DNA from: a virus
Lineage: Duplodnaviria; Caudoviricetes
Virus record (IMG/VR): IMGVR_UViG_3300014208_000050
Coordinates: 1 to 55,554 of that record
DNA length: 55,554 nt
Strand: one strand, 5' to 3'
A program made the translations under genes and the position numbers. Below the pieces are notes generated by a model. It was not told the origin of the DNA. It ran no database searches and was given only the letters and a program-made list of their open reading frames with translations. The stretch's first letter is position 1; each line of letters begins with the position of its first letter. Positions 1 through 51,603 of this stretch are shown here, piece after piece.

Positions 1-72
1 AAGGCAAGGCAAGGCAAGGCAAGGCAAGGCAAGGCAAGGCAAGGCAAGGCAAGGCAAGGCAAGGCAAGGCAA
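1..72. repeat. (AAGGC)n pentanucleotide tandem repeat, truncated by window start
   Basis: 14 perfect AAGGC units followed by AAGG. Confidence 0.97.
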
Positions 73-160
73 GGGACCGGCCGACCGACCGGCCGACCAC
101 ACAACATAAGCTACCCTAATACTATCAGACTGTCATAATGGCAGTTGTAGTCAATGTGAC

Positions 161-5999: not shown

Positions 6000-6070
6000 A
6001 CGCCGGTAGCCCAATTAAAGAGGCAGGTGGACAACACTGTCAAGTGCGGGTGAAAGTCCCGCCCGGCGTA
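6000..6070 (+). ncRNA. tRNA-like element 1 (shortened anticodon arm)
   Basis: acceptor ACGCCGG/CCGGCGT; TAGCCCAATTAAAGAGGCA D arm; T arm GCGGG-TGAAAGT-CCCGC; no 7-nt anticodon loop. Confidence 0.7.
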
Positions 6071-13551: not shown

Positions 13552-14982
13552 ATGAGTAAGTTTGAAGCCCCCGTTCAGTTCGCGTGCTACGGCCCCGCTG
13601 GCGCTACCGGCAATGATGCGTTCATTCCCGAAATTTGGGCGCGCGAGGCTCTGGAAATCTTGTACGAGAACATGGTCGTAGCTAATTTGGTGCATCGTAG
13701 CTTCGAGGGCGAGATTGCCAAGTTCGGAGATACGGTTCATACCCGTCGTCCTGCCGAGTCGAAGATCAAGCGCCGGACGGATGACACGACTGTTTCGACA
13801 CTGAACCAGTCCACCAGTGCGACTGATGTCCCTGTCATCCTCAACCAGTGGGGCAATCAGACCTTCTGCGTCCGACCGGGCGAGATGAGCTTGTCAATGC
13901 AAGACCTTGTGCAGACCTACTTGGCCCCTCGCATGAAGGTCATGGCCCGCATGATCGACCGCGCCGTCCTTGGACGGATGGCTGCGTCCTTTGGCACGAC
14001 CAATGCGACTCGTGCTGGTAAGCTGAATGGTTTGACTTCGGCCACGGCTTACAACTCGGTGGTTGAATTGGACCAGGTACTCAACCAGAACAAGGCCCCC
14101 ATTGACGGTCGCAACTTGTTGGTTTCGCCGAGTGCCAACGCTCAAATGCTCAAGTGTGACAACTTCATCAAGGCAATGGATCGTGGTGACGGCTCCTCGC
14201 CAATCAGCACGGCCAAGCTCGGTCGCATCTTGAACTTCGACACGTATCTGAGCCAGAACGTCAACCAAGTGTTGGCGGGTGCCGACATTACGCAGTTCGC
14301 CATCGACGCCTCTGCGGTTGCTGCCGAAACGGCTGTGATTCCGGCCACGGCGGTCAGCACGACTGCGACTGTCGGTGAGTATTGCACGGTTGCAGGCGAC
14401 GATCAGCCGTCGTATATCTCGGCGGTGTCGAACAGCACCAGCTTCACTCTTGCTGAAGGGCTGAAGTACGGCGTGCTGGCGAGTGCTACAGCAACTCGCT
14501 ACAACAAGTGCGCCGTGGCTGCGAGTGCCGCCGCTGGTTGGGCTGAGGGCATTTCCCTCAAGAGCCACGCTTCTGGCAAGGGTCCGCAAGTCGGCCAGTT
14601 GCTCTCGTTCTGTGACGCAACGACTGGTGCGAACCGTCACACCTACACGGTGATCGAAGTCGTGGAAACCGCCACGACCACCAGCACTGTGCTGTTGGAC
14701 CGTCCGCTGGACAAGGCGATCACCCAGGACTCGACCGTGGTGTGCCCTGGCCCCTACGGCGCGATCAACCCGGCGTTCCACAAGAACTGCTTGGCTCTCG
14801 TGACTCGTCCGTTGGCTGTTATGTCCGGTGCTGGCATGTTGTCGGCCGTGCAGAGTGATGGTGGGCTCGGCCTCAGCATCTCGATGCAGGACGTGATTAA
14901 CGAAGGCCGCAAGGTCACGATTGACATTCTGTTCGGCACTGCCGTGTTGGACAGCGCTCTCTGCGTGCCGTTGCTCGGCTAA
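13552..14982 (+). CDS. major capsid protein (P22 coat-like)
   Basis: AFIPEIWAREAL, FGDTVHTRRP, LNQNKAPIDGR, LGRILNFD, FHKNCLALVTRPL, IDILFG; AGGAG RBS before ATG 13552. Confidence 0.92.
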   Translation: MSKFEAPVQFACYGPAGATGNDAFIPEIWAREALEILYENMVVANLVHRSFEGEIAKFGDTVHTRRPAESKIKRRTDDTTVSTLNQSTSATDVPVILNQWGNQTFCVRPGEMSLSMQDLVQTYLAPRMKVMARMIDRAVLGRMAASFGTTNATRAGKLNGLTSATAYNSVVELDQVLNQNKAPIDGRNLLVSPSANAQMLKCDNFIKAMDRGDGSSPISTAKLGRILNFDTYLSQNVNQVLAGADITQFAIDASAVAAETAVIPATAVSTTATVGEYCTVAGDDQPSYISAVSNSTSFTLAEGLKYGVLASATATRYNKCAVAASAAAGWAEGISLKSHASGKGPQVGQLLSFCDATTGANRHTYTVIEVVETATTTSTVLLDRPLDKAITQDSTVVCPGPYGAINPAFHKNCLALVTRPLAVMSGAGMLSAVQSDGGLGLSISMQDVINEGRKVTIDILFGTAVLDSALCVPLLG

Positions 14983-14996
14983 CAATTGCTGTAAAC

Positions 14997-15027
14997 CCAC
15001 CTACCAGGGTTCATCCCTGGTAGGTGG
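14997..15027 (+). terminator. hairpin after MCP (attenuator or mRNA stabiliser; no U-tract)
   Basis: CCACCTACCAGGG-ttcat-CCCTGGTAGGTGG, 13-bp stem. Confidence 0.65.
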
Positions 15028-15048
15028 ATATTTAAGGAGATTGCAGCA

Positions 15049-15372
15049 ATGAGTTGGTACGACGCATGGCAAATGCTTTCATCGACGGGACCGATCGTGA
15101 GTACCGTCGTGTTGGTGATCGCCTTCTTCTTGTGGAAAGACTACAAACGAGAAAATAGGTTGCAGGATCGAGTTGAGGTTCTTGAAAAAGACCAGAAAGA
15201 AATCCTTCTGCCTCTCGTTGAGCGTTGCTCTGTGATTATTGCTCAGAACACGGCCGTGATGATGCGATTGGAAAAGGCTTTGGATCGTAATGGACCCGTA
15301 GAAGTCAAGGACGAGCGTTGTCTACTTGATCGACTTCTTGAGGATGCTGCCGCACACCGGCAAGAACAATGA
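15049..15372 (+). CDS. small membrane protein, holin-like
   Basis: one TM helix followed by KDYKRE coiled coil; AAGGAG RBS. Confidence 0.55.
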   Translation: MSWYDAWQMLSSTGPIVSTVVLVIAFFLWKDYKRENRLQDRVEVLEKDQKEILLPLVERCSVIIAQNTAVMMRLEKALDRNGPVEVKDERCLLDRLLEDAAAHRQEQ

Positions 15373-34426: not shown

Positions 34427-34617
34427 TCTTCCCTCAAGTGCCAAAGGTGCGTATCTCGGCTTTGAACAACACCAACCTCTTGTGCGAGCCATTGACGAAT
34501 CTTGGGATACTCGTCGGGGTCAAATCCAAGTTCACTTAGAGCGTGCCGTAGATTGGCTCGTGTACCGTACACGTAGCTGGCGATCTCGCGCAGTTCGTAG
34601 CTTGATAGGTATCTCAT
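34423..34617 (-). CDS. hypothetical protein
   Basis: ATG with GAGG RBS; overlaps both neighbours. Confidence 0.65.
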   Translation of the reverse strand: MRYLSSYELREIASYVYGTRANLRHALSELGFDPDEYPKIRQWLAQEVGVVQSRDTHLWHLREE

Positions 34618-37301
34618 AGTAACCTCAGTCTTCCGTTGACAATAACCCACGGCTTGGCCCCTTCAACAGGCTCCTTATCCACCCACGCCAAGTTCCCGAC
34701 GTATCGTTTATTCTCGGCTCCAACACCGCACGGATGGTGACTCGGCAGTTGATTGGCGAGGGTGTGTTTGCTCCACTCCGATCGCTCTTCATTGGGAACC
34801 CAATCAAAGAACTTGTCGCAGAACTCGGTAAACGTCACCCGTTCCCCGATGACGTGGTGGCATATATCGGATAGGAACTGGTCGAGAGCGGTGATGCGAG
34901 TTGCCTGTGCTTGTTGCTTGTGGTAGGTGTCGATGACAGGAAGTTTCAATCGACCTTGCATCTTCGGGATGGTTAGATCGAAGATGGTCCGCATGAAGTG
35001 AGGTGCTTCAGCCTCTAACGCCGCGTTCATATCGTCTCTTGGAATCTTCACGCCACTCGCAAACGGTGCCACGTAGCACATGGTAATTCGTGTGTCACCG
35101 GGGAAGATCGGGCAGTACGTGGAATGGTTGGCGACTTGAATGAAGTGCAACGTATTGGCCATTGTGTAAGCGTCCATTCGCATTTGTCGGAAAAGCATGT
35201 TTGGGTTCATAACCCAATCCTTGAGCCGTGCAAGAGCAGAGGGAGACTTGGTTATGTCAATCTCTTCGATGTAAGCGAGAATAGCCCCGGCTAGCTCGCC
35301 GTTGAATCCGTTCTGATTCGTCAGAGCTAAGTTGGCTTCAACGATGCCCTTATTCAATAGGAAGGCGAAGGCATCGTGATACGTGCTTTTCCCGCAGTCT
35401 TCGTCACCGTAGAAAAAGAGATAAGGCAGTGGCTTGTATGGGTCGCGCAGCAGACAGGCAGCCCAGAGGAGACCGTAATCGGCTCCGCATTTGATGTTTG
35501 CCTTCTCGGCAAGTGGGTTTTGCTGGATAGCCTCATCGAGGTCTTTGAAACAATGGTTCAGAACCATGTCCCAGTGAGGGTGATGAGGTACTTCGTCGTT
35601 CTCTAAGTTGACTGGGAGGTGCAGATATTGAACCGCCCCACGATTCCAACGACGATTGACTTGATACTCTGATTGAAATGGTGTGTTCACAAGTTTCCAG
35701 TTTTTCGTGCAGGCTGAGCCGAGAATTGTGGATATTTCAGGTTTTGTCTTGCCGTTGGACGCGAGAATGTCTTTGATGTCGTCCTTGGGACGGTCGATCC
35801 AATCGCCTTCCCAGTCTTTGGACACCCAACCCGCACTTTTACCTGTTGGCGACACAAGCGATCGAACAAGTTTGTCACAGTCGGAGTAGCTGTCTTCTGT
35901 GACTTGAGCCTTGATCTCGGCTTGGACGTTGAGGATTCGGGTTAAGTTACCGCGAATGTCCAACCACCCTTCGGGAATGATTTCCTCCGCGTCTGCCTTT
36001 TTTACAGATACGACGACACGCCCATCTTTTTGCTTCTTCAGCTTTGTTTCACGCCCCGCGAATTGTTCAGGTAACTTGACGGGCTTACCAAGGGCTTCAA
36101 TGGCTTTTTCAGCGTCCGAAGAAGAAGAAAAGATAAAGCCGCCGTTGTCTGGGGCTTCAATACCCTTCACCGATTTGGCAGCCGTTTGCAAATCAGGCTC
36201 TCGGTTAAAGTAACAATTCGTCCAACCATCACCATCTTGTTCCCAAGTCTCAGACTCGGCAGTGCCGGGCGAGAATCGGTATACACGCCACGCCCCGTTT
36301 TCAAGAGGGAAAGCGAAACAGTTGCATGTGCCGGGGTCTTTTCCAGCGGACGTAGTTGAGAATAAACCCTTGATACCTAGCTCTTTGTTTTCGAGTAGGT
36401 CTTGTAGGGCTTTGGTATGTGTTTGTAGCAGGTGATAGTCGGATGCCCACACGGCCGAGTAGCCAGAGCGGATTAGTTCGTCGATGACGGCCTTGTGCTT
36501 GGAATCTAGGGCAATCCTATTGCGACTGCTGGCCAGCGTCTCAAAGGTGTCTTCATTCTCGACGCCGTTAATGCGAATCTTGGCTCGTTTGCGAGTGACT
36601 ACTTCAATATGATCCTTCCAGTTGGTCGGAAGGTCGCTGACCGTTATAACTTGAGTGGCCTCCTTGATCTTTGCGAGACCCTCACTCGTGAGTTTTCGGT
36701 GCCACACCCACATGACACCCCCGCAGGCATCGACGGCTCCGGCAAAGTCAAAGCCCGCAGCACTGGACATCATCCCCAACACGCAACGAGCCAGGGCAGC
36801 GTGCTCCGTATGATTGGCTGTCGGGATGCCATCGAAGTAGACGTAGAGGTGGATGCCGCCCCCGCTTGTACTCTTACGCACTTCCACGTAAGGCAGTGCC
36901 TCAGCGGCTTTCTTTACGTTTTCTAACTCGTCGTCGCTGATACCTACGCCCTTGGCGTGCCCAGTAATACTGTCGATGTCGAAACCCGCCCAAAGCGACT
37001 TACGTTCTTGCCAATCCCAGCCTGTGAGCCCAATACCTTCAGCATGAAGGTCCAATGGCCACCGGATTTCGTAGTCAGACCAAGAAGGCTCGGTATCCGC
37101 ATTCTTGGGTAAACGAATCGAGAACCATTCGTTCACGCCGTCGGTATACGTGCTACGTTTGCCCGCTACAGGCTCGCCTGAGCCCGCTGCGACGTTCACC
37201 TGCGTTTCTAGGCCCGTGGACCACTTATCCACGAGGTCCGCGTTAGCAGGCGTTTTACGGGCTTGCAGGAAATCGCGTATTGACTGGGCTGCTGTTGGCA
37301 T
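34614..37301 (-). CDS. primase-polymerase (AEP-like) fused to SF3-type helicase/NTPase
   Basis: GFDID and VRKSTSGGGIHLY prim-pol motifs; FFYGDEDCGKST Walker A, YIEE Walker B, GDTRI. Confidence 0.85.
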   Translation of the reverse strand: MPTAAQSIRDFLQARKTPANADLVDKWSTGLETQVNVAAGSGEPVAGKRSTYTDGVNEWFSIRLPKNADTEPSWSDYEIRWPLDLHAEGIGLTGWDWQERKSLWAGFDIDSITGHAKGVGISDDELENVKKAAEALPYVEVRKSTSGGGIHLYVYFDGIPTANHTEHAALARCVLGMMSSAAGFDFAGAVDACGGVMWVWHRKLTSEGLAKIKEATQVITVSDLPTNWKDHIEVVTRKRAKIRINGVENEDTFETLASSRNRIALDSKHKAVIDELIRSGYSAVWASDYHLLQTHTKALQDLLENKELGIKGLFSTTSAGKDPGTCNCFAFPLENGAWRVYRFSPGTAESETWEQDGDGWTNCYFNREPDLQTAAKSVKGIEAPDNGGFIFSSSSDAEKAIEALGKPVKLPEQFAGRETKLKKQKDGRVVVSVKKADAEEIIPEGWLDIRGNLTRILNVQAEIKAQVTEDSYSDCDKLVRSLVSPTGKSAGWVSKDWEGDWIDRPKDDIKDILASNGKTKPEISTILGSACTKNWKLVNTPFQSEYQVNRRWNRGAVQYLHLPVNLENDEVPHHPHWDMVLNHCFKDLDEAIQQNPLAEKANIKCGADYGLLWAACLLRDPYKPLPYLFFYGDEDCGKSTYHDAFAFLLNKGIVEANLALTNQNGFNGELAGAILAYIEEIDITKSPSALARLKDWVMNPNMLFRQMRMDAYTMANTLHFIQVANHSTYCPIFPGDTRITMCYVAPFASGVKIPRDDMNAALEAEAPHFMRTIFDLTIPKMQGRLKLPVIDTYHKQQAQATRITALDQFLSDICHHVIGERVTFTEFCDKFFDWVPNEERSEWSKHTLANQLPSHHPCGVGAENKRYVGNLAWVDKEPVEGAKPWVIVNGRLRLL

Positions 37302-37352
37302 TTGGTATTTGGTATTTGACGCGGCAAGTGTCTAGCTACTGCGTAATGTACT

Positions 37353-37432
37353 CAAAGGTAATAAGGCAGAAAGTTTGGAATTTTAACCAACGGCTTGGTT
37401 AAGAATCCAAACTTTCTGCCTTATTACCTTTG
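37353..37432. promoter_or_regulatory. 38-bp inverted repeat, probably back-to-back divergent phage promoters (motif P1)
   Basis: arms 37353-37390 and 37395-37432 are 36/38 complementary with a 4-nt spacer, between divergent operons. Confidence 0.75.
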
Positions 37433-37467
37433 TACACTTCATTTCTTTCACTCTTGAGGAATTTCTG

Positions 37468-38205
37468 ATGAGCACTGAACTCGCAACTCTCGACCTCTCT
37501 CAACTTCCATCTACACAGTTAGGCAGCGACGAAGCCTACGCTGACCTCGCCAAGGGTGGCGACTTTCTGAAGTACATCAAGCTCTATAGCAAGGGCAAGG
37601 ACATCGACAAGGGTAGGATTCCGCCCGGACACTGGGGCATTCCCGAGTCTGAGGACGAGATTATCGACCTTGGGGACTCAATCGACGTGCTCCCGCTTGC
37701 CCGGCGTCCAAAGGCTTTGGACATGAGCGACAAGACGGCGATCGTCGTGTCCTACGATGAGTCCTCGGCAGTGTTTAAGGCGATTCAAGCCAAGTCAGCC
37801 GAGAAAGAATCGAAGTGCCAGCACGGCATCAGCTTCCTGGCCTTGGAGCGGTCCACGGGTCGGTTCTTGGAAGTGTTCTTTGGCAACAAGTCGAGCCGAC
37901 CGGAAGCAAAGAAGATTTTCCCCTACTTGCCGAAGTCGCAGGCCGACATTGACCGTCTGGCTGCTGCTGGCAATGATGTACAGGGTTTGGTGCCGCACGG
38001 ACCCCTCCCCGTTACGTTGAAGATTCGCCTCGCCGAGAGCAAGCAGGGCTTCTCGTGGCATTGTCCAATGGTGGTTAAATGTTCAGCGCCGATCAAGACT
38101 CCGGCAACGGCAACCGTGGTGAAGGAGATCACCAAGTTCTTGACCGTCAAGTCGGGCGGTGTTGAGAAGGTTGAGGAGCCCAAGGGTAATACAAGGGCAC
38201 GATAA
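37468..38205 (+). CDS. putative single-stranded DNA-binding protein
   Basis: first gene of the replication operon; OB-fold-like pattern (LKYIKL, PPGHW, FSWHCP); GAGG RBS. Confidence 0.5.
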   Translation: MSTELATLDLSQLPSTQLGSDEAYADLAKGGDFLKYIKLYSKGKDIDKGRIPPGHWGIPESEDEIIDLGDSIDVLPLARRPKALDMSDKTAIVVSYDESSAVFKAIQAKSAEKESKCQHGISFLALERSTGRFLEVFFGNKSSRPEAKKIFPYLPKSQADIDRLAAAGNDVQGLVPHGPLPVTLKIRLAESKQGFSWHCPMVVKCSAPIKTPATATVVKEITKFLTVKSGGVEKVEEPKGNTRAR

Positions 38206-38209: not shown

Positions 38210-38349
38210 ACCCGGCGCTCCTCTGCATAGCACGAGCATAAAGGCCGGGTAATCACCCTCCGGTAACGGAAGGGCCAAGAGCGTGGAAGCGGCCACCTGC
38301 CGTAAGGAACCAGCGGCAGAATTGCGGGTTCGAGTCCCGACCACGCTCC
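38210..38349 (+). ncRNA. CCCGGC stem element, GTAA hairpin and tRNA-like element 2
   Basis: ACCCGGC/GCCGGGT stem; CCCTCCG-gtaa-CGGAAGGG; acceptor GAGCGTGG/CCACGCTC; T arm CGGG-TTCGAGT-CCCG; 6-bp stem with 11-nt loop; no D stem. Confidence 0.7.
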
Positions 38350-43718: not shown

Positions 43719-45029
43719 ATGAAACTCAATACATCAATGGTACGGGGTATTAAGAGCCGCCTTGCAGCAGGTGAATCGCAGTCATCAATTGCCGACGCCT
43801 TTAAGGTAAGTCGCTCGTTGATTTCTGACATCGCCACTGGTCGGGCGTGGAAGGAGGCTCCTTGGCCGGACGGTGAGCCCTGTCCGAAGAAGCCCGGTGG
43901 TCAACGCAAGCCCCTTGACACCTGTGACCCAACCAACGAGCGAATCCTTGAGTTGGAGTCCGAAGTCGTTCATTTGACTGATGAGCGCAATAGGGAGAAG
44001 GCCAAGGTCAAGGCGAGTGCGAAGACGACCGGCCTGTTCAAGGCCATCGTCAAGGAGATGGACACACGGGTCAAGCCGTTCAAGGCTTTGCCTAGCGTGT
44101 ACGTACCAAGGAAGAGTGGCAAGATAGAGGAGCACGCCGTACTGCATATTAGCGACATGCACGCAGACTCGGTGGTAACTCCCGAGGAAGTAGGTGGCAT
44201 GGAAGAGTTCAACTTCCCTATTGCCTGCGCGCGTGCCGAGCGACTTGTTGATACTACCCTACGCTGGACACAGAGCACACTCGCACCCAACTTCGACTTT
44301 CAAGCGCTGTGGGTGTTGATTTACGGTGATTTGAGTAGCGGTACGATTCATGGGGCGGCTCAGCGCAGCTACTTCCGCAATCAATTTCGCAACTCACTCG
44401 CTATCGGCCAGTTGCTTGGTTTGATGGTACGCGACTTGGCCCCTCACTTTCCTGTGGTGAACGTAGTGTGCGTCTCGGGTAACCACGGCCGTACCACACC
44501 TAAGAAGGACTTTCACGGCAGTCAGGAGAACTTTGATTACTTAATCGCAGAGATCGCGCGCCTCCACTGCACCGAATTGGCTAATACAAGCTGGTTGATC
44601 CCCAATGCTTGGTCGGTGAATCTTGACATCAATGGGATTGGTGTGAACGTGTCGCACGGCGACGATTGCAAGTCGAACGGGGGCATTCCGTTCTACGGTA
44701 TGGTACGTCGTCAGAAGGGCCTCATTGCCATGAACAGTGTTCAGGGCGGGCTCCGAACTCGGTACTGGGCAATGGGCCACCACCACTGTTCGGCAGCGTT
44801 GGCAGATATGGATGGTGAATTGCTCTTAAACGGCGCGTGGTTGGGAACAGATCAATACTCGTTCAATGCGTTGGCGGGGTACAGACAACCGACTCAGTTG
44901 TTGCACGGTATGCACGCTCGTAACGGGGTAACGTGGCGATTGCCCGTGTGTTTACGATCCGACGAGGAGCGTGTGGGCCCCAAGCGTTATAAGATCGACG
45001 GGAGCAAAGAAATTGGCCCGATCCTATGA
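43719..45029 (+). CDS. HTH-fused calcineurin-like metallophosphoesterase
   Basis: N-terminal QSSIADAFKVSRSLISDI HTH; SDMH, YGD, GNHG, SHGD, MGHHH. Confidence 0.88.
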   Translation: MKLNTSMVRGIKSRLAAGESQSSIADAFKVSRSLISDIATGRAWKEAPWPDGEPCPKKPGGQRKPLDTCDPTNERILELESEVVHLTDERNREKAKVKASAKTTGLFKAIVKEMDTRVKPFKALPSVYVPRKSGKIEEHAVLHISDMHADSVVTPEEVGGMEEFNFPIACARAERLVDTTLRWTQSTLAPNFDFQALWVLIYGDLSSGTIHGAAQRSYFRNQFRNSLAIGQLLGLMVRDLAPHFPVVNVVCVSGNHGRTTPKKDFHGSQENFDYLIAEIARLHCTELANTSWLIPNAWSVNLDINGIGVNVSHGDDCKSNGGIPFYGMVRRQKGLIAMNSVQGGLRTRYWAMGHHHCSAALADMDGELLLNGAWLGTDQYSFNALAGYRQPTQLLHGMHARNGVTWRLPVCLRSDEERVGPKRYKIDGSKEIGPIL

Positions 45030-45208
45030 AACGAATCCCTTTAACCAAGGGCAAGGAAGCTTTAGTAGACGACCAAGACTATGTGTACTTGATGCAATGG
45101 CCTTGGTCTGCGATTAAGAACGGTAAGTACGCAGTCAGGTATAGGAGGATAGCTGACGGTGATTGCCCGTCTGTGATCTATATGCACGCACGACTGCAAC
45201 TCACATAA
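45026..45208 (+). pseudogene. truncated HNH endonuclease remnant
   Basis: MKRIPLTKGKEALVDDQDY...IYMH, then stops before the nuclease core. Confidence 0.75.
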
Positions 45209-45219
45209 GGAGTGATTCA

Positions 45220-45339
45220 ATGCCTATGAAATCACAAGCACAGCGAAAGTACCTTTGGGTTGTTAGCCCAAAGGTTGCTAAGAAGTTTGAAGCGGAAACA
45301 CCCAAAGGTAAGAAGCTTCCTAAGAAAGTAAAGAAATGA
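45220..45339 (+). CDS. small Lys-rich phage protein (39 aa)
   Basis: AAGGAG RBS; MPMKSQAQRKYLW...ETPKGKKLPKKVKK. Confidence 0.75.
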   Translation: MPMKSQAQRKYLWVVSPKVAKKFEAETPKGKKLPKKVKK

Positions 45340-45360
45340 TCCACTACAACAGGTGACACT

Positions 45361-45591
45361 ATGCGAGTGGGCAGATTCGTCATAGAGCATTGGCGTGAGG
45401 ATGAGTTGATTGAGAAGATCACACTTACAAAGAAGCATATTCAAAGGAAGGATGGCACTGGTATTATTGTCTTCCCGCCCGGCTGTATCGAGTTGGCCAC
45501 CGGGGATGAACTTCACTTTGACTGTGACGGACTAGCGGAGTTATTGCATGACGACGGAAGAACAGAAGGCAAAGAATCGGGAAAAGTTTAA
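45361..45591 (+). CDS. hypothetical protein
   Basis: ATG with AGGTG RBS. Confidence 0.55.
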   Translation: MRVGRFVIEHWREDELIEKITLTKKHIQRKDGTGIIVFPPGCIELATGDELHFDCDGLAELLHDDGRTEGKESGKV

Positions 45592-46186
45592 GCGGTACTG
45601 CTCTCGACACTGGCAAGAGGTCAAACAACAGGCAATTGCACGCTATAGAAAAAAGAAACTAAACACACCTCCCAAGGCTCGGTCGCTCATTAACGAGGGG
45701 GCTGAGCCTTTTCGCACTTTTGAGTTATGTGATCCGCGTGACCCTGAGCAATTGCCACACGTCATTGGCGTTTGTCCAGCAGGCACAACTCCAGTCTGGT
45801 TGCTCATGTGGGCCTGCCGGCACTATAGCAACACACGCTGGGCCAAGTGGTTTCGGAGGCTCGATGATCTTGGGCTAGAGCCTGTCGAGCGTAGGGGGTG
45901 GGCTGTTGGACGGTTTGCTCATTTGACACATGACCTAGCCTCCAAACTGGTGGATACACGCGCCAAAGAGATATGCAAACTTGTTGGCAAGCGGCCAAAA
46001 TGGCTGTACGCCGCAGGTTGTCAACGAGCCCAACCAGTTGGATGCCTCTGCCCGGATGGGCGTGTTCAGCGCTACCGGAACGTACGTCAAGCGTGGCGCG
46101 CCTCGGGCGTGAGTTATAGACGGTTTGATAAATACCTCAACACAAGTATGCCGACGCCAGACGGATTGATCTGGTTTGGAGCCTGA
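45548..46186 (+). CDS. degenerate GIY-YIG-like protein with NUMOD1-like tail
   Basis: TFELCDPRD...HVIG resembles IYxLxDPR..RYVG; YRNVRQAWRASGVS C-terminal HTH. Confidence 0.5.
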   Translation: MTTEEQKAKNREKFKRYCSRHWQEVKQQAIARYRKKKLNTPPKARSLINEGAEPFRTFELCDPRDPEQLPHVIGVCPAGTTPVWLLMWACRHYSNTRWAKWFRRLDDLGLEPVERRGWAVGRFAHLTHDLASKLVDTRAKEICKLVGKRPKWLYAAGCQRAQPVGCLCPDGRVQRYRNVRQAWRASGVSYRRFDKYLNTSMPTPDGLIWFGA

Positions 46187-46188
46187 TA

Positions 46189-46578
46189 ATGGGAATAGGA
46201 CGCCGACTAAAGCTTACCGACCAACGCAAAGTGAGCCGCATGGAGGAGCTTCGGAATGACGCTTCCTCAACGGACATCGACGAGGAGCTGAATATCCTCA
46301 CCGTAATGGAAGAGGATGCGATCAACAACGAGCAGACGGGGCTCGCACTCGACATTATCCGCGTTCGTGGCTCGCTGTGTCACAACGCTGAGTCCAACAA
46401 GATTCGCCAAGGCGAACTACTGGCAAAAGCCGCCTTGGTTCAGATTGCTCAGAAAATGGTCGGAATCATCGCTCAGAACATCGAAGGCAAGTTCATCGGG
46501 TGGGAACAGTCCTTAGATGACATCCAAGAAGGATTCATCACGGTTGTGGCGGAAGCAAAAAATATTGAAGAAAGTTAG
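46189..46578 (+). CDS. hypothetical helical protein (possible small terminase-like)
   Basis: DIDEELNIL pattern; no small terminase is found next to terL. Confidence 0.4.
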   Translation: MGIGRRLKLTDQRKVSRMEELRNDASSTDIDEELNILTVMEEDAINNEQTGLALDIIRVRGSLCHNAESNKIRQGELLAKAALVQIAQKMVGIIAQNIEGKFIGWEQSLDDIQEGFITVVAEAKNIEES

Positions 46579-46611
46579 TGTAAAACAAGGGAGTTGGGTT
46601 ACTTACAGGTG
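46578..46611 (+). promoter_or_regulatory. putative promoter motif P2, copy A
   Basis: GTGTAAA-N7-AGTTGGGtTACTtacAGGTG; 25/34 identical to 54679-54712. Confidence 0.5.
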
Positions 46612-46623
46612 GAGGAACAATCA

Positions 46624-46917
46624 ATGGAAGTCTTGGCTCTGATTAGTGCGGTCCTGTTTTGGGTGACTGTTGTCGCATTCGTACAACACCTAACCCTGTA
46701 CAATAAGTGCAAGGCTGCCAAGGAGTTGTGGAAAACCTACGCCCTGGCTCTTGAAGTCATTGATGAGTGTGAGTCTGAACTCCGTCTGGAAATCCCTGGA
46801 GAGGGGTGCATGAAGCGGTGCCGACGCCGGGAACCATATCTGGACCAGCGGGACAATGCTGTTCGGATGGCTGGTGAAACCCTGTCTAAGTTGGAACAGA
46901 GTGGGGAATATGCCTAA
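46624..46917 (+). CDS. membrane protein
   Basis: GGAGG RBS; N-terminal TM. Confidence 0.65.
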   Translation: MEVLALISAVLFWVTVVAFVQHLTLYNKCKAAKELWKTYALALEVIDECESELRLEIPGEGCMKRCRRREPYLDQRDNAVRMAGETLSKLEQSGEYA

Positions 46918-47310
46918 GATTTGCTACGTGAAGAAACGGTTTCGTAGTGACGCACTAGCCCGGATTCAACAGGCTAATGCGATCATTACCGAGTACCAAG
47001 GGCAAGGATTTATCCTTACCTTGCGACAGTTGTACTATCAATTTGTCAGCCGCGATCTGATTCCCAACACGGTTCAGTCCTACAAGAACCTTGGTAGCGT
47101 CATAAACGACGCTCGACTAGCTGGGCTGATCGACTGGAACGCGATGCTTTGGAGCCCGAGGTCATTGTCGGGTTGATCCGATCTGAAGTGGACAAACTGA
47201 TCGACGGACAACTTTGGAGCGATGCACTTCACCGACAGTACCTTGGTCGTGAACAACTTACCGACGTGGCTGAGCAGTGGGACAAGGTTATAGGAAGTCT
47301 GAATGATTGA
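46910..47310 (+). pseudogene. internally deleted winged-helix/Toprim-type phage protein
   Basis: LTLRQLYYQFVS...ARLAGLIDW N-terminus joined out of frame to a DALEPEVIVGLIR...W C-terminus. Confidence 0.65.
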
Positions 47311-47836
47311 GCATTGGAAAGATGTGCCTGGATACGAGGGTTCCTACCAGATTTCTGATCTAGGGCGCGTGCGAAGTGTGCCTCGGCATGTCTATTGTCG
47401 CAACGGACATTTGCATTGGATTCGAGGCCGAATCTTGAAACCTAGCGTCGGAACTTGTGGGCATATTCAGGTTCGTTTGTCCCGTGCGGGCAGAAGTCCT
47501 ACCGTGCCCGTCCATCAACTTGTATTGAAGGCGTTCATCGGCCCACGTCCAAAAGGCAAGGAAGGCTGCCATAACGACGGTGTTCACGCGAACAACCGAT
47601 TGTCTAATCTGCGGTGGGACACGCACCGGTCAAATATGACAGATGCCAGCAACCAAGGGCTATTGCGAGTCCTTCCAGTACGCAGGTCGGACGGGAAGAC
47701 GTACAAATCATGCAGCGCCGCAGCTAAGTCTATAGACGTGCATCGTAGCAGCGTATCTCGAAGCATCCGACTCAAACAGAGGTGCGGTGGGTACACATGG
47801 GAGTTTGTAACACAAGCCGTTGCATCGGAGATTTAA
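47303..47836 (+). CDS. NUMOD4-HNH homing endonuclease
   Basis: WKDVPGYEGSYQISDLGRVRS; VHQLVLKAF; CHNDG..NNRLSNLRW. Confidence 0.93.
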   Translation: MIEHWKDVPGYEGSYQISDLGRVRSVPRHVYCRNGHLHWIRGRILKPSVGTCGHIQVRLSRAGRSPTVPVHQLVLKAFIGPRPKGKEGCHNDGVHANNRLSNLRWDTHRSNMTDASNQGLLRVLPVRRSDGKTYKSCSAAAKSIDVHRSSVSRSIRLKQRCGGYTWEFVTQAVASEI

Positions 47837-48036
47837 TGAACGAACTTGATGACCTTCGAGCCGAGATTGAGGAAGAAATTAACGACCCCACTTCGCACGG
47901 CCCTGCCGTTATCCGGCTTGTGTTGAGTGAAATCGAGGAGAAGTTCGGTCAAGAAGAGGTTGATAACGCGATTCACGATTTTCAACTCCCGGCGTGCCGA
48001 AAGGCTGAACCTATAAGCGCTGTGACTGGTGACTAG
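47836..48036 (+). CDS. small acidic hypothetical protein
   Basis: GGAG RBS, TAATG coupling; 3' end overlaps a structured RNA. Confidence 0.55.
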   Translation: MNELDDLRAEIEEEINDPTSHGPAVIRLVLSEIEEKFGQEEVDNAIHDFQLPACRKAEPISAVTGD

Positions 48037-48110
48037 GAGGGCGGTTGCTTCGCCGTAACGATAGTTGCCACCGTGGCTGGTGGGTAGTCACGCGATAAAC
48101 GCCGGGAGTT
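47984..48110 (+). ncRNA. multi-stem structured RNA closed by a 12-bp stem
   Basis: AACTCCCGGCGT/ACGCCGGGAGTT; GCC-GAAA-GGC; GTGACT/AGTCAC; CCACC/GGTGG. Confidence 0.6.
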
Positions 48111-48117
48111 TCTTTGT

Positions 48118-48325
48118 GTGGTGGCCGCGTAGAAAGTTTACGCACTTACTTGGAAGGGGTTAATACTCGAAGCCTCGATCCCTGGCGACAGGGAGAACCT
48201 AGAGCGAGGTTCCCGTAGTTCCTGACAACGGCAGGAGAGGGATTTTACAGGGTCCAAGAGTCGAACGTGTCCGGGTTAGATCGTTCGCCTACCAACTCAA
48301 GTCGGTTTGAATCCGACCCACCACT
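48118..48325 (+). ncRNA. tRNA-like element 3 with ~130-nt insertion in the anticodon arm
   Basis: acceptor GTGGTGG/CCACCAC; D-like GCGTA-gaaagtt-TACGC; T arm GTCGG-TTTGAAT-CCGAC; four internal hairpins. Confidence 0.65.
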
Positions 48326-48345
48326 GCCTTTTACCTGGAGAACCA

Positions 48346-48591
48346 ATGAAAAACTTATCAGCTTGGACGCCGACTGGCACTGGACCATACCCTCCCTATG
48401 TGTCTATTAACTTCAAAGATTTTCTCGTAGAGATCACATGCCGCTCCCCGGCGACCAGCGACGGACGCGACGGTGCAACAGCCGTAGTGTCTATGCCTAT
48501 GTGCGAGTTCAAAACACTTGTAACAGAAGCAATCCGAACACACTGGCATGAAATCCTAAAGCAAGACGATGAAGTCGGCCTTGCGTGGTGA
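48346..48591 (+). CDS. hypothetical protein
   Basis: GGAG RBS, ATG. Confidence 0.65.
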   Translation: MKNLSAWTPTGTGPYPPYVSINFKDFLVEITCRSPATSDGRDGATAVVSMPMCEFKTLVTEAIRTHWHEILKQDDEVGLAW

Positions 48592-48638
48592 GGGATTTTA
48601 CAGAGCCGAACGTATCTCCATCAACCCATTGACTTACA

Positions 48639-48944
48639 ATGCTAAACAACATCACTCGAATCACGACCGACGACACCAAGAAGACCTACGACTTTCCTGA
48701 CGCGAGTGCTCCTGCCCAAATCTGGGAGTTGAAGCTAACGCTCACTTGTCTAAGCAATTGTTACGGCCGGTTGGAACGCGGCACTGGTAGCACGGCGGCA
48801 GTCGTCCATCTTGAGCGAAAGACGATTGAGGACCACGGGTTGCGTCCACGGGTCGAGACTCGAAAGAACGTGCCAGTGGAAGAGACACCTGCTGACTTGG
48901 CTATCAAGTTCTTGGCCAGTATTGGAGTTTACCCAACTGAATGA
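48639..48944 (+). CDS. hypothetical protein
   Basis: ATG; ATGA-coupled to the next gene. Confidence 0.6.
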   Translation: MLNNITRITTDDTKKTYDFPDASAPAQIWELKLTLTCLSNCYGRLERGTGSTAAVVHLERKTIEDHGLRPRVETRKNVPVEETPADLAIKFLASIGVYPTE

Positions 48945-49276
48945 CGCCTTTCCTATTACAACGAGAGGCTTATATACCGTTTCCAGCGTGGGCGAAACGG
49001 CGGAAGAAGCCTTGGATATACATTGGCTGGATCAAACGGGAACCCGGTTTCGAGAAGCTGTGCCAAAGCGGTCGAATCCAAGACCACGGAGAGCGGAGGG
49101 CAATTGATATTTACCGGGAAGGTGCGGCCTGCTGGGTCTGCGAGCCAAGTGATTGGATGCGGTTCTGGCAACGTGTGAGGTGTTTCGTTACAGGACATAG
49201 CTGGAGAGACGACCCATTTACAACCAATCTTTGCCGCAAATGTGCGAAGAAAAAACCACAGACTCTTGAACGATGA
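48941..49276 (+). CDS. hypothetical protein with C-terminal Cys/His motif
   Basis: CFVTGHSW...CRKC; coupled to polymerase. Confidence 0.6.
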   Translation: MTPFLLQREAYIPFPAWAKRRKKPWIYIGWIKREPGFEKLCQSGRIQDHGERRAIDIYREGAACWVCEPSDWMRFWQRVRCFVTGHSWRDDPFTTNLCRKCAKKKPQTLER

Positions 49277-51603
49277 CGAAACGCCTCTACTTGGACCTTG
49301 AAACTTGCGGCCTGCACAGTCTCCCAGTGTTGGCGCAGTTTGCAGTCGAAGATGGTCCAATCACTCTGTACGAGTTTTGGAAGAAGCCAGTCGGTGAGAC
49401 GCTAGACCTTATCGAGTGGATTTGTCAGCACACGTTTGTCGGATTCAACTGCGTATTTGACTGGTATCACATCTGCAAAATCTACACGATCTTTTCTTTA
49501 CTTCCACGGGATTGGATTCCCGAGGAGCATATCGAAGAGATTGCTCTGCTTGAGCCTAAAGGACAAGACGGACTCTGTTGTAAGCCTGTTGGCTGTCTTG
49601 ATCTTCTTCTCCACTCGCGTAAGGGTCCGTATCAATCCCTTATGGCGAGGGATAGCATTAGAATAAAGCGCGTGCCAACCGCACTGGCCTATGCGCTGGC
49701 CCGCGAGCTTGAAACCCGGATTGAGCTTGACGGAATCTTCTTCGCCAAGACGGCCGACAAGAACGCCCCACGTTGGCAGGCTGTCGATCGCATCAATAAG
49801 AAAACCGAGTCGATCGACCCAGACTTCAAGGACGTGGTTCTGCGGTTTAACCCAGCGGGCGGTCTCAAGTACCTCGCCGAATATGCTCTGAAAATGCCTC
49901 CCAAGGCACACTTCTCAGACATTGAACTAGGCCGAGAGTTCTCACCAAAGGAACTCGGCTATGCTCCGACGGCCCTTGCCATAAGCAGTCCTGATAATAA
50001 CTGGGAAGTCTATAAGGACGGCAAAGTCTGCGGACACGCTTGGCCGGGAGTTATCAAGCGGCACATCGAACACTGGGCAACCAATGAGCCTGCCCGCGAG
50101 TATGCCAAGGACGATATTGTCTATACCCGTGAGCTTGACAAGCATTTCGGCTACCCAGAGCCGAACGATGACGACTCGGTGTTGGCTTGCATGGTAGCTG
50201 CCGTCAGGTGGCACGGATTTACGATCGACATCCCCGGCATTAAGAAGCTGCTCAAGTCGGCCCAAGAGACGATCGACAAGGCTCCGTGCAACGTCAACCG
50301 CCCAAAGTCCGTCCGCGCGTATATCTACGAGTGCATGGACGAGATGGAAAAGACCATCCTTGAGGAGACCACCCGTAAGGCCAAGCTCGAAGCGGTGAGC
50401 AACTGGCAGGTTGCCGAAGCTGAGCCCTGCACGAAATGCGAGGGGATGGGCTGCGTCCGTTGCAACAATGGAACCTTGGAAGTCGGGCAGCACCCCGCTG
50501 CAAAGCGAGCCTCTGAGGTCTTGGCTGTTAAGTTCGCTGTCAAGGAAAAGGAACTCTACAAGAAGTTGCTTCGGGCTGGCAAGCTGCACGCCTCGTTCAA
50601 AGTGATCGGTGCTCTGTCTGGTCGCATGAGCGGTGGTGACAATCTCAACGTACAAGGCATCAAGCACACGGTCGATGTCCGTAGCCTGTTCCCGATCAAG
50701 TGGGATGGGACGAAACTCAGCATTGGCGACTTTTCAAGTTTTGAAGTCACAATCGCCGAGGCTGTGGCCAGTGACCCTGATCTTCGGTCGGACTTGATGA
50801 CGGGCAAGTCTATCCACGCGATCTTCGGCAGCCTGCTCTTTCCCGGCAACACCTACGAGGACATTAAGGCCACGAAGGGTACAGAGAACGACCTGTACAC
50901 CAAAGCGAAGCAAGGGTTTTTCGCCAGTATCTTGTACGGCGGCGACCACAACACACTGTTGAACAAGCTGGGTGTAGCCGAGAAAGACGGCAGGGCCGCA
51001 ATCGAAAAGCTGTTGACCAAGTACAAGAAACTCGGTGACTGGAAGGCCCGTGTACTGAAGAGTTTTCAGTCTATGCAACAGCCGGGAGGGATCGGCTCAC
51101 AGATCATTTGGAGTGACCCGGCCGAGTATGCGGAAACAATGCTTGGCTTCAAGCGGTACTACACTCTCGAAAACAAAATCTGCCGAGCACTGTTCGATCT
51201 CGCCCGAAAGCCACCCAAGCACTGGAAAGATTGCCCGGTCAAGGTGTTGCGTCGAGACCGCGTGCAGACAGCGGGCGGGGCTGTATCCAGTGCCCTCTAC
51301 GGGGCGGCCTTCGGTATTCAATCTGCTAACGTCCGGTCTGCCGGGAATATGGAAATCCAAGGCACGGCGGCCGGTGTCACCAAAAGCGTGCAATGCAAGC
51401 TGTGGGAGTTGCAACCAGCGGGTGTCAACGACTGGCAAGTATGCCAGTTCCAAGTACATGACGAAATCGTAGTTGTCAGCCCACCTGGACTCGTTGACAA
51501 GGTTGAAGAAGTAATCAACACGTCAGTCGAGTCGTACAAGAGTTTGATTCCGCTGATACAGATGGATTGGAAGAAAGACGTATCGAACTGGGGTGAAAAA
51601 TGA
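49273..51603 (+). CDS. DNA polymerase family A with 3'-5' exonuclease
   Basis: YLDLETCG, GFNCVFD, YAKDD exonuclease motifs; SGRMS, GDFSSFE (A), KAKQGFFASILYG (B), QVHDEI (C). Confidence 0.95.
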   Translation: MTKRLYLDLETCGLHSLPVLAQFAVEDGPITLYEFWKKPVGETLDLIEWICQHTFVGFNCVFDWYHICKIYTIFSLLPRDWIPEEHIEEIALLEPKGQDGLCCKPVGCLDLLLHSRKGPYQSLMARDSIRIKRVPTALAYALARELETRIELDGIFFAKTADKNAPRWQAVDRINKKTESIDPDFKDVVLRFNPAGGLKYLAEYALKMPPKAHFSDIELGREFSPKELGYAPTALAISSPDNNWEVYKDGKVCGHAWPGVIKRHIEHWATNEPAREYAKDDIVYTRELDKHFGYPEPNDDDSVLACMVAAVRWHGFTIDIPGIKKLLKSAQETIDKAPCNVNRPKSVRAYIYECMDEMEKTILEETTRKAKLEAVSNWQVAEAEPCTKCEGMGCVRCNNGTLEVGQHPAAKRASEVLAVKFAVKEKELYKKLLRAGKLHASFKVIGALSGRMSGGDNLNVQGIKHTVDVRSLFPIKWDGTKLSIGDFSSFEVTIAEAVASDPDLRSDLMTGKSIHAIFGSLLFPGNTYEDIKATKGTENDLYTKAKQGFFASILYGGDHNTLLNKLGVAEKDGRAAIEKLLTKYKKLGDWKARVLKSFQSMQQPGGIGSQIIWSDPAEYAETMLGFKRYYTLENKICRALFDLARKPPKHWKDCPVKVLRRDRVQTAGGAVSSALYGAAFGIQSANVRSAGNMEIQGTAAGVTKSVQCKLWELQPAGVNDWQVCQFQVHDEIVVVSPPGLVDKVEEVINTSVESYKSLIPLIQMDWKKDVSNWGEK

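What the first reader, a model, noticed from the sequence alone, without database searches (positions are those of the whole stretch)
48118..48325. Giant tRNA mimic, and a possible phage system of tRNA-shaped processing or decoy RNAs
Seen: acceptor GTGGTGG/CCACCAC, a D-like hairpin and a T arm enclose a stem TTGGAAGG/CCTACCAA. That stem carries about 130 nt with four hairpins (CCCTG-gcga-CAGGG, GAACCT/AGGTTC, TCCTG/CAGGA, CGAACG/CGTTCG). With 6000 and 38279, the window holds three tRNA-shaped elements and no normal tRNA. All keep the acceptor/T half and all break the anticodon differently. Known: RNase P, RNase Z and the CCA enzyme read the acceptor/T half, while anticodon nucleases and synthetases read the anticodon arm. 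Inference: either tRNA-like tags that recruit host RNase P/Z to release the upstream structured RNA (conceptually like MALAT1/mascRNA), or scaffolds and decoys against tRNA-targeting defence. This is my best candidate for an undescribed system.
Basis: partly seen in the sequence, partly recalled or inferred. Interest (0 to 1): 0.8.

Follow-up and report, generated by a model that had tools for sequence, protein, structure and literature searches.

The report
Orphan tRNA-shaped RNA before polymerase operon
A 208-base non-coding stretch in a groundwater phage closes like the top half of a tRNA and sits just after a conserved RNA leader, but no relative carries it, so its function remains a guess.

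Summary
A perfect 7-bp terminal helix (48118-24/48318-24) abuts a 5-bp hairpin with a T-loop-like UUUGAAU loop. This strict arrangement occurs once in the window and in 0 of 60 simulated sequences.

Beyond that frame it does not behave like a tRNA or any known family:
- ARAGORN, Rfam's tRNA and tmRNA models and a Y-RNA model do not match it.
- Overall folding is unexceptional: z = -1.95, and 11% of equal-length windows fold as well.
- None of 160 related polymerase loci holds a homologue, by sequence or by covariance model.
- No RNA data exist.

The context is new. The element lies directly 3' of a covariation-supported leader RNA (48021-48092) that precedes the polA operon in 21 of 80 related loci. 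In 19 relatives checked an ORF starts within about 40 nt of the leader's match. Only this phage has about 225 non-coding bases there.

Some relatives carry tRNAs, a tmRNA, and Ro60-linked Y RNAs embedded in tRNAs.

Best reading (about 0.4): a lineage-specific tRNA-framed RNA cut out by RNase P/Z. Relic or chance remain live alternatives.

The parts
48118..48124 (+). 5' strand of the terminal ('acceptor-like') 7-bp helix, GTGGTGG
   Evidence: Pairs with 48318-48324, all Watson-Crick. Pair probability is about 1 alone, 0.65 in 48021-48360 and about 0 in 47950-48450.
48127..48143 (+). Hairpin in the D-arm position (GCGTAGA-AAG-TTTACGC), 2 nt after the terminal helix
   Evidence: Minimum-energy fold, probability 0.9-1.0 in all contexts. 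Lacks the D-loop GG, read from the sequence.
48149..48258 (+). Large central arm closed by CTTGGA/TCCAAG. It carries hairpins 48179-94 (GCGA, a GNRA-type loop), 48195-212 and 48219-37.
Evidence: Minimum-energy fold. Closing helix about 0.55, hairpins 0.8-0.99, 0.8-0.9 and about 0.5.
48262..48287 (+). Hairpin CGAACG-(T GTC CGGGTTA GAT)-CGTTCG, in the position of a long variable arm
   Evidence: 0.9-0.96 when folded alone or in 48021-48360.
48301..48317 (+). T-arm-like hairpin GTCGG-TTTGAAT-CCGAC
   Evidence: Probability 0.8-1.0 in all contexts. The loop keeps U54, U55, R57, A58 and the G53-C61 pair, but has U for C56 (read from the sequence against the standard tRNA numbering, recalled).
48318..48325 (+). 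3' strand of the terminal helix (CCACCAC) plus one unpaired T; no encoded CCA
48021..48092 (+).
   Evidence: Model R2 scores the window at 89.8 bits, with matches in 21 of 80 related viral loci, all on the + strand upstream of polA. 90.6% of cells are paired, 16 of 23 pairs have compensatory changes, and 0 of 500 shuffles reach this.
48104..48118 (+). Conserved GGGAG (Shine-Dalgarno-like) followed by TTG 48114 / GTG 48116, at the place where relatives start their first ORF. The start codons overlap the 5' end of the terminal helix.
   Evidence: Alignment A3, ORF positions in relatives, ORF list.
48237..48275 (+). First copy of a direct repeat: GAGGGATTTTACAG ... CGAACGT.TC. The second copy is at 48590-48620, at the end of the 81-aa ORF.
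   Evidence: The exact 14-mer occurs twice in the window. The extension is read. Absent from the 160 related loci.
48346..48591 (+). First ORF after the element (81 aa), followed by 101-aa and 111-aa ORFs and polA (49273-51603)
   Evidence: The 81-aa protein has 57 other representatives at E<=1e-3. The 101-aa protein matched only itself.

Best explanation
The element is a lineage-specific structured RNA built on a tRNA frame. It has a terminal 7-bp helix stacked on a T-arm-like hairpin and a hairpin in the D-arm position. About 130-140 nt of extra hairpins stand where the anticodon arm would be. It lies in the 5' untranslated part of the polA-operon transcript, between a conserved regulatory leader and the first ORF.

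Proposed mechanism (inferred, not shown): when the terminal helix and T-arm fold, host RNase P cuts at 48117/48118, and a 3' tRNA-processing nuclease cuts near 48325. This would uncouple the leader from the p81-polA message and release a stable RNA of about 208 nt. That RNA's hairpin module could act as a scaffold or decoy for an unidentified partner.

What is shown: the helices, the non-coding status, the position next to a conserved leader, and the rarity of the strict frame. What is inferred: transcription, cleavage, stability and any partner.
For: - The strict acceptor/T-arm frame occurs once in the window and in 0 of 60 simulations.
- The spacings match tRNA geometry: 2 nt to the first hairpin, 5 nt (CTCAA) before the T-arm, no gap between the T-arm and the 3' strand.
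- All local hairpins are perfect or near-perfect, with high pair probabilities.
- The element has four hairpins of 6 bp or more, which 5% of windows reach.
- The stretch is non-coding.
- It sits 25 nt after the core of a leader RNA with strong covariation.
- Of the 20 leader-bearing sequences examined, only the window has a long non-coding insert between the leader and the first ORF, so the insert is a discrete addition.
- The interval between the exonuclease gene and polA is a cargo site for tRNA-related genes in relatives. ARAGORN finds 59 tRNAs in 160 loci. Several tRNAs carry 50-76-nt structured inserts on the anticodon side yet still score 43-47 bits on the tRNA model. One relative has a tmRNA there.
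- From established knowledge (recalled): RNase P accepts acceptor/T-stem minihelices. The YrlA paper reports that a tRNA-like Y RNA with a 7-bp acceptor stem is cut by RNase P and receives CCA (PMC4201824, passages read).
Against: - No homologue was found in 160 related loci, by sequence or by covariance model. Structure therefore has no covariation support.
- No variation is seen among the four runs that hold the DNA.
- No RNA data exist.
- Rfam's tRNA model does not match the + strand even at E<=10. ARAGORN does not call it with introns allowed, or at an 80% threshold.
- Overall folding energy is ordinary.
- The long-range terminal helix disappears from the predicted ensemble when 170 nt of flank are added.
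- TTG/GTG start codons behind a conserved Shine-Dalgarno-like GGGAG overlap the helix, so ribosomes could compete with folding.
- No tRNA-related or RNA-binding partner gene was found in the parts of the 55.5-kb fragment that were scanned (30 ORFs between 31464 and 55408).
Confidence: 0.4

Rival explanations
1. Relic. The element is the decaying remnant of a tRNA-related cargo gene that once sat upstream of polA, such as a tRNA with a structured insert or a tRNA-like RNA. Only the acceptor and T-arm are still recognisable, and it has no present function.
For: - Relatives carry tRNA-Asn (35) and tRNA-Thr (12) among 59 tRNAs in 160 loci, mostly between the exonuclease gene and polA. Some tRNA-Thr lie 200-350 nt upstream of polA.
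- The window holds two other degenerate tRNA-like elements, scoring 29.7 and 21.5 bits, and no intact tRNA.
- A neighbouring gene (the topoisomerase-like ORF) is visibly broken by a deletion and frameshift, so this region tolerates decay.
- The D-arm and anticodon features are absent.
Against: - Every helix in the element is perfect or nearly so, including four hairpins inside the 'insert'. Neutral decay would not preserve that.
- No tRNA in the relatives resembles it beyond a generic T-arm. The best match has 4 of 7 mismatches in the acceptor.
- 0 of 26 pattern matches in prokaryote genomes is a tRNA-like site.
Confidence: 0.2
2. Coincidence. The stretch is ordinary hairpin-rich untranslated or spacer sequence brought in together with the three ORFan genes. 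It may hold a vestigial start codon and a short upstream ORF. The long-range 7-bp pairing next to a hairpin is a chance match found because many windows were screened.
For: - With G-U pairs and any loop allowed, 323 such frames exist in this window.
- Folding energy ranks only in the best 11% of windows, with z = -1.95.
- The terminal helix is lost in a wider folding context.
- There is no conservation.
- TTG 48114 (34 codons) and GTG 48116 (15 codons, my reading) sit where relatives start their first ORF, 5-7 nt after the conserved GGGAG.
Against: - The strict frame with a T-loop-like loop was seen in 0 of 60 simulations.
- It coincides with tRNA-like spacings on both sides and with a fully non-coding interval.
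- No protein-level similarity to the ORFs that follow the leader in relatives (tblastx).
Confidence: 0.25
3. A very divergent Y-RNA-like partner of a phage Ro60 (Rsr), related to the tRNAs with an embedded Ro60-binding stem seen in relatives. The protein would be encoded in the part of the genome missing from this record.
For: - Five of 80 related viral loci carry Y-like RNAs next to a TROVE gene or within about 4 kb of it, and tRNAs whose anticodon side carries the same stem.
- The element contains GTCGAACG (48260-67), which fits the GNCGAAN0-1G motif named in PMC4201824 (passage read). That motif is followed by GGTTAGATC, at a spacing like that of GGTTATC in the relatives (my reading).
- The record is only 54% complete.
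Against: - The Y-RNA model R1, run with filters off, gives no match in the element. The best hit in the window has E = 0.81 and lies in coding sequence on the other strand.
- A profile of the 3' halves of nine chimeric tRNAs does not hit 48260-48325 at E<=100.
- No TROVE gene in the 55.5 kb.
- By my estimate the 8-letter motif is expected by chance about once in ten such elements.
Confidence: 0.05
4. A known class after all: an intron-containing tRNA gene or a reduced tmRNA.
For: It has a tRNA-like outer frame with a large insert. One relative carries a bona fide tmRNA (L122, 120 bits). Relatives carry insert-bearing tRNAs.
Against: - ARAGORN with introns up to 300 nt finds 0 genes, and its tmRNA search at default thresholds finds none.
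- Rfam tRNA, tmRNA and group I intron models give no + strand match at E<=10.
- No 7-nt anticodon loop can be restored.
- There is no G3-U70 pair, and no reading frame ends in a typical tag (read).
- About 140 nt is shorter than any group I intron I recall.
Confidence: 0.03

Closest known systems
tRNAs with an embedded Y-RNA-like stem, and free Y-like RNAs, next to Ro60 (TROVE) genes in related phages (L004, L043, L054, L058, L114). They belong to the YrlA / bacterial Y RNA kind (Rfam RF02553; PMC4201824).
   Same: Same phage family and the same genome interval. Both have a tRNA frame whose acceptor and T-arm are kept while the anticodon side carries an extra structured module.
   Different: The relatives' RNAs keep a canonical D-arm, and several keep a 7-nt anticodon loop. 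They score 43-47 bits on the tRNA model and carry the GGGCCGAAG...GTTATC / TTGCC stem, and their genomes encode Ro60. The window's element has none of these, and its insert is about 130-140 nt rather than 50-76 nt.
tmRNA (Rfam RF00023)
   Same: An acceptor helix plus T-arm closing a large structured interior, with a degenerate D region. One relative encodes a tmRNA.
   Different: No match to the tmRNA models. No G3-U70, no tag reading frame, and 208 nt against 293 nt in the relative's tmRNA.
mascRNA-type tRNA-like processing tags (MALAT1) and stable tRNA-like RNAs in phage tRNA clusters (recalled, not searched)
   Same: The proposed mode of action: a tRNA-like fold in a longer transcript that recruits RNase P and a 3' nuclease, and so separates the upstream RNA from the rest.
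   Different: Those are eukaryotic, or lie in tRNA clusters, and are of tRNA size. Here the fold would be 208 nt, in a phage operon leader, and processing has not been tested.
Group I intron-containing tRNA genes of bacteria
   Same: A tRNA outer frame interrupted on the anticodon side.
   Different: No group I intron match. The insert is too short, and no anticodon loop can be restored.

Membership tests
tRNA (Rfam RF00005 / ARAGORN) | Scores on the tRNA covariance model, or is called by ARAGORN (cloverleaf with D, anticodon and T arms) | tested here: not met
   ARAGORN finds 0 genes in the window. The element is not called with introns of 0-300 nt, nor at an 80% threshold. There is no + strand RF00005 match at E<=10 in 47900-48700. 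Insert-bearing tRNAs of relatives score 43-47 bits under the same tool.
tRNA (Rfam RF00005 / ARAGORN) | 7-bp acceptor stem stacked on a 5-bp T-stem with a 7-nt T-loop (U54 U55 C56 R57 A58) | tested here: met
   GTGGTGG/CCACCAC plus GTCGG-TTTGAAT-CCGAC, with no gap between them. The loop differs from the consensus at one position (U for C56). The consensus is recalled.
Intron-containing tRNA (group I intron in the anticodon loop) | Group I intron core (Rfam RF00028), and an anticodon stem-loop restored after removal | tested here: not met
   No Intron_gpI match at the gathering threshold or at E<=10. No 5-bp stem with a 7-nt loop can be drawn around the insert. ARAGORN's intron mode is negative.
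tmRNA | Match to the tmRNA models; a G3-U70 pair; a tag reading frame after a pseudoknot | tested here: not met
   ARAGORN finds no tmRNA at default thresholds. There is no RF00023 or permuted-tmRNA match at E<=10. Position 3-70 is G-C, and no frame ends in a tag-like peptide (read).
Bacterial/phage Y RNA (YrlA kind) | Ro60-binding stem with the GNCGAAN0-1G strand and its partner | tested here: inconclusive
   The 8-letter motif is present (GTCGAACG, 48260-67). But the family model R1, built from 14 Y-like RNAs of relatives and run with filters off, gives no match there, and no YrlA match appears at E<=10.
Bacterial/phage Y RNA (YrlA kind) | Encoded near a Ro60/TROVE gene | tested here: not met
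   PF05731 gives 0 matches in the 55.5-kb record, against 5 of 5 relatives that carry Y-like RNAs. The record is 54% complete, so absence from the whole genome is not shown.
tRNA-Y chimeras of related phages | Sequence or profile similarity of the segment from the GNCGAA motif to the 3' end | tested here: not met
   An nhmmer profile of nine chimeras, run with --max, does not hit 48260-48325 at E<=100. The top window hit is the T-arm at 38321-41.
tRNA-like processing tag (RNase P / RNase Z substrate) | Cleavage at the 5' end of the acceptor helix and near the discriminator; CCA addition | not testable with these tools
   No RNA run holds the sequence. All runs laid on it are DNA contigs.

The most novel reading that the evidence does not exclude
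The element is a new kind of phage tRNA-framed scaffold RNA. The acceptor/T half serves as a handle for host tRNA-processing enzymes, which cut it out of the polA-operon leader. A ~130-140-nt hairpin module, standing where the anticodon arm would be, binds a partner other than Ro60. It would be a sister solution to the tRNA-embedded Y-RNA stems of related phages. This would make the exonuclease-polA interval of the phage family a general platform for 'tRNA frame plus cargo module' RNAs.
Probability: 0.2. Interest if true: 0.7.

Novelty: new variant of a known kind. Interest (0 to 1): 0.35.

Why it matters
If the fold forms and is processed, it would be a bacterial-virus example of a tRNA-like tag that cuts a regulatory leader away from a replication operon. 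It would also be a second type of 'tRNA frame with cargo', alongside the Ro60-binding chimeras in relatives. That would give a concrete system for asking why phages keep tRNA tops without anticodons.

As it stands it is a single-lineage sequence with no conservation or expression evidence, so the claim of an undescribed system is not established.

The firmer results lie beside it:
- a conserved, covariation-supported leader RNA upstream of family-A DNA polymerase genes in this phage family, with no Rfam match at E<=10 in the window's copy;
- tRNAs carrying Y-RNA stems next to phage Ro60 genes.

Tried and rejected
- **Intron in the split topoisomerase-like gene.** Rejected. Both the N- and C-terminal parts lie upstream of the HNH gene, joined by a deletion and frameshift.
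- **Close relatives through small neighbouring proteins or exact DNA in viral contigs.** Nothing found.
- **Loci for the 81-aa protein family.** Whether the 81-aa family travels with such an RNA elsewhere stays open.
- **Host tRNA or attP origin.** The exact 24-mer gave 0 matches in prokaryote genomes. A relaxed pattern gave 26 matches, and 0 of the 26 has both a paired T-stem and an upstream GTGGTGG.
- **Expression.** No RNA holder is listed. The four runs laid are DNA contigs identical to the window, so they give no ends and no variants.
- **Ro60-site reading of CTTGGA/TCCAAG and of TTTAC/GT(C)GAA.** Drawn by eye only. Not supported by model R1 or by the chimera profile.
- **The repeat GAGGGATTTTACAG as a promoter.** No consensus promoter or terminator lies on the + strand in 45000-50000 beyond shuffle expectation. 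The repeat is absent from relatives.
- **tblastx of 48037-48700 against the first 80 loci.** Only the leader matched.
- **Earlier-findings tool.** It was closed.
- **One script timed out** and was rerun in a faster form.
- **Supplements of PMC4201824**, which list phage YrlA RNAs, could not be seen. They may already include RNAs like the chimeras noted here.

Full report
**What is there**

The window is an IMG/VR virus record of 55,554 bases, judged 54% complete. The finding lies in a 309-base non-coding interval. A 66-codon ORF ends with TAG at 48034-36, and an 81-codon ORF starts with ATG at 48346 behind GGAGAA. All neighbouring genes are on the + strand:

| Feature | Coordinates |
|---|---|
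| Exonuclease | 43719-45029 |
| Two unknown ORFs | not listed here |
| Broken topoisomerase-like gene | 46911-47310 |
| NUMOD4/HNH homing endonuclease | 47303-47836 |
| The interval with the finding | 48037-48345 |
| Three small ORFs | 48346-49276 |
| Family-A DNA polymerase | 49273-51603 |

**The observation**

- GTGGTGG/CCACCAC (48118-24/48318-24).
- A hairpin two bases downstream (48127-43).
- A T-arm-like GTCGG-TTTGAAT-CCGAC (48301-17) that abuts the 3' strand.
- Four inner hairpins.

The proposed inner stem TTGGAAGG/CCTACCAA is complementary but disfavoured, with pair probability 0.02-0.05. The energy model prefers CTTGGA/TCCAAG (48149-54/48253-58) at about 0.55. That makes CGAACG.../...CGTTCG a separate arm in the position of a long variable arm.

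The terminal helix depends on context. Its probability is about 1 alone, 0.65 within 48021-48360, and about 0 within 47950-48450.

**Chance**

- A strict frame is 7 Watson-Crick pairs, an abutting 5-bp hairpin with a TTNRANN loop, and a span of 40-320. It occurs once in the window on both strands together, and in none of 60 first-order Markov simulations.
- Frames with any loop number 9, against a simulated mean of 2.25.
- The loose version, with G-U pairs and any loop, occurs 323 times.
- Thermodynamic support is weak. The z-score is -1.95, with 6 of 200 shuffles as stable. Of 2214 equal-length + strand windows, 11% fold as well.
- Four hairpins of 6 bp or more are reached by 5% of windows.

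The frame is therefore unlikely to be chance in this window. It is not overwhelming for a feature picked out of a very large screen.

**Known families**

- ARAGORN finds no tRNA or tmRNA in the window, also with introns up to 300 nt. At lowered thresholds it returns hundreds of noise calls, but not this frame.
- Rfam gives no match at gathering thresholds.
- At E<=10 in 47900-48700, Rfam gives only three chance-level hits, none to tRNA, tmRNA, YrlA or group I introns on the + strand.

The other two 'tRNA-shaped' elements score better in small-region scans. Element 6000-6070 reaches 29.7 bits on the tRNA model (cut-off 29). Element 38279-38348 reaches 21.5 bits on tRNA-Sec (cut-off 47). The three elements form a series of falling tRNA-likeness, and the present one is the least tRNA-like.

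**Relatives**

The polymerase has many relatives at 55-66% identity and none closer. I fetched 80 loci from viral contigs and 80 from metagenome contigs.

None of the 160 loci contains a homologue of 48118-48325:
- blastn and nhmmer hit only the first ~90 bases of the interval.
- A covariance model of the element (R3, 46 pairs) finds only itself in 1.56 Mb.
- tblastx finds no hidden protein similarity in the first 80 loci.
- The exact T-arm-plus-acceptor 24-mer is absent from viral contigs and from 185,579 prokaryote genomes.
- A relaxed pattern gave 26 matches, none of them tRNA-like.

The same DNA, letter for letter, is present in a second groundwater study and as short contigs in two landfill metagenomes. 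The phage is therefore real and widespread. But there is no variation to test pairing, and no RNA run.

**The neighbour that is conserved**

The bases just upstream form a three-way-junction RNA (core 48021-48092).
- A model built from nine sequences (A3, R2) finds it in 21 of 80 viral loci plus the window, always on the + strand upstream of polA.
- On the 22 matches (20 distinct), 90.6% of cells are paired, against 73.8% in shuffles and 33-44% when partners are slid.
- 16 of 23 pairs show compensatory changes, and 0 of 500 shuffles reach any measure.
- The motif ends in a conserved GGGAG.
- In the 19 relatives examined, an ORF (polA itself or a small gene) starts within about 40 nt of the end of the leader's match. 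Only the window has ~225 non-coding bases there.

The 208-nt element is thus a discrete insertion between a conserved leader and the first ORF. TTG 48114 and GTG 48116 stand where relatives start translation, and they overlap the terminal helix.

**What the family carries in this interval**

Between the exonuclease gene and polA, the relatives carry tRNA-related cargo.
- ARAGORN finds 59 tRNAs in 160 loci: 35 Asn-GTT, 12 Thr-TGT and 12 others.
- One relative has a tmRNA (L122 37-332, 120 bits).
- Five viral loci carry arrays of 55-79-nt stem-loops, GGGCCGAAG...GGTTATC...CTTGCCC. These fit the GNCGAAN0-1G Ro60-binding motif of bacterial Y RNAs (PMC4201824, passages read).
- All five records encode a TROVE protein. 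By my coordinate conversion it lies directly downstream of the array in four of them.
- In the same loci, several tRNAs with canonical acceptor, D and T arms carry this stem as a 50-60-nt insert on the anticodon side. They still score 43-47 bits as tRNA.
- Rfam's YrlA model gives a weak permuted hit across two such neighbours (28.7 bits, E = 3e-4, cut-off 69).

So a 'tRNA frame plus cargo' design does exist in this phage family, in the Ro60/Y RNA form.

**Does the window's element belong to it?**

No test supports that.
- The Y-RNA model R1, with filters off, gives nothing in the element; the best E in the window is 0.81, elsewhere.
- A profile of the 3' halves of nine chimeras does not hit it.
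- The fragment has no TROVE gene.
- A by-eye resemblance remains: GTCGAACG, then GGTTAGATC, then 18 nt to the T-arm. It stays a lead only.

**Verdict**

The most likely reading (about 0.4) is a lineage-specific structured RNA on a tRNA frame. It would be transcribed as part of the polA-operon leader and excised by RNase P and a 3' nuclease, with the function of the released RNA unknown.

| Alternative | Estimate |
|---|---|
| Relic of tRNA-related cargo | about 0.2 |
| Chance frame in ordinary untranslated sequence with a vestigial start | about 0.25 |
| Divergent Y-RNA relative | about 0.05 |
| Known tRNA-intron or tmRNA class | about 0.03 |

The claim of an undescribed system is not established, because there is no conservation, no expression data and no partner.

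Noticed in passing
window 48021-48092 (with conserved flanks to ~48110): A conserved three-way-junction leader RNA ending in GGGAG. It is found upstream of the polA operon in 21 of 80 related viral loci plus the window. 16 of 23 pairs have compensatory changes, and 0 of 500 shuffles reach this. The window's copy has no Rfam match at E<=10. A conserved CATAA/TATAAG box lies just upstream.
   Followed up: yes
L043 270-389 and 399-528; L054 2141-2263, 2272-2397, 2401-2498; L058 2016-2138, 2148-2277; L004 10451-10574; L114 7790-7923: tRNA genes with canonical acceptor, D and T arms. A 50-60-nt stem-loop (…TTGCC-loop-GGGCCGAA…GCGTTATC) is inserted before or within the anticodon arm. The insert looks like a Ro60-binding Y-RNA stem closed by a loop. 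Some keep a 7-nt anticodon loop (CTGTTAA, CTGATAA). Four score 43-47 bits on Rfam's tRNA model. I could not check whether these are already listed in the supplements of PMC4201824.
   Followed up: partly
L043 531-664; L054 2075-2819; L058 1949-2621; L004 10578-11160; L006 11518-11581: Arrays of 55-79-nt Y-RNA-like stem-loops (GGGCCGAAG…GGTTATC…CTTGCCC). By my coordinate conversion they lie directly upstream of a TROVE/Ro60 gene in four of the five records. All five records have a TROVE match. The window has none.
   Followed up: partly
L122 37-332: A phage-encoded tmRNA (Rfam RF00023, 120.3 bits) about 2.7 kb upstream of polA in a related metagenome contig.
   Followed up: no
L081 4516-4641; L044 2333-2465; L069 8429-8573; L077 2035-2180: Other 126-147-nt elements with a 7-bp terminal helix and a canonical T-arm but a non-tRNA interior. 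L081 holds two T-arms and a D-arm in a nested arrangement. L044 lies between two tRNA genes.
   Followed up: no
window 46911-47310: A topoisomerase-like gene (PHROG 6247; about 300 aa in other phages) is reduced to its first ~80 and last ~55 residues. The two parts are joined out of frame, so this is an internal deletion of ~165 codons with a frameshift. It lies just upstream of an HNH homing endonuclease gene.
   Followed up: yes
window 48237-48275 and 48590-48620: A direct repeat: an exact 14-mer GAGGGATTTTACAG followed by …CGAACGT(G/A)TC. One copy lies inside the element and the other at the stop codon of the 81-aa ORF. Absent from the 160 related loci. Meaning unknown.
   Followed up: partly
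window 6000-6070 and 38279-38348: Two tRNA-sized degenerate elements. The first reaches 29.7 bits on the tRNA model (cut-off 29) in a small-region scan. The second reaches 21.5 bits on tRNA-Sec and has a canonical TTCGAGT loop. ARAGORN calls neither.
   Followed up: partly
window 37226-37560 and 14826-15180: The most stable predicted folds in the window after correcting for G+C (residuals down to -38 and -30 kcal/mol for 208-nt windows). The first lies in the gap between the divergent genes 34614-37301 (-) and 37468-38205 (+).
   Followed up: no
window 1-85 and 161-210: Tandem repeats at the start of the record: AAGGC repeated about 15 times, and TACATTATG about 5 times. They may mark a genome end or an assembly edge.
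   Followed up: no
window 48346-48591 and 48639-48944: The 81-aa protein belongs to a small-protein family without a Pfam match in the scan of the 81-aa protein (57 other representatives at E<=1e-3; motif …YPPYvSIN…VEITVRSP…DG..G…). The 101-aa protein matched only itself, on a contig of 88,469 bases. So a longer assembly of this phage exists.
   Followed up: partly
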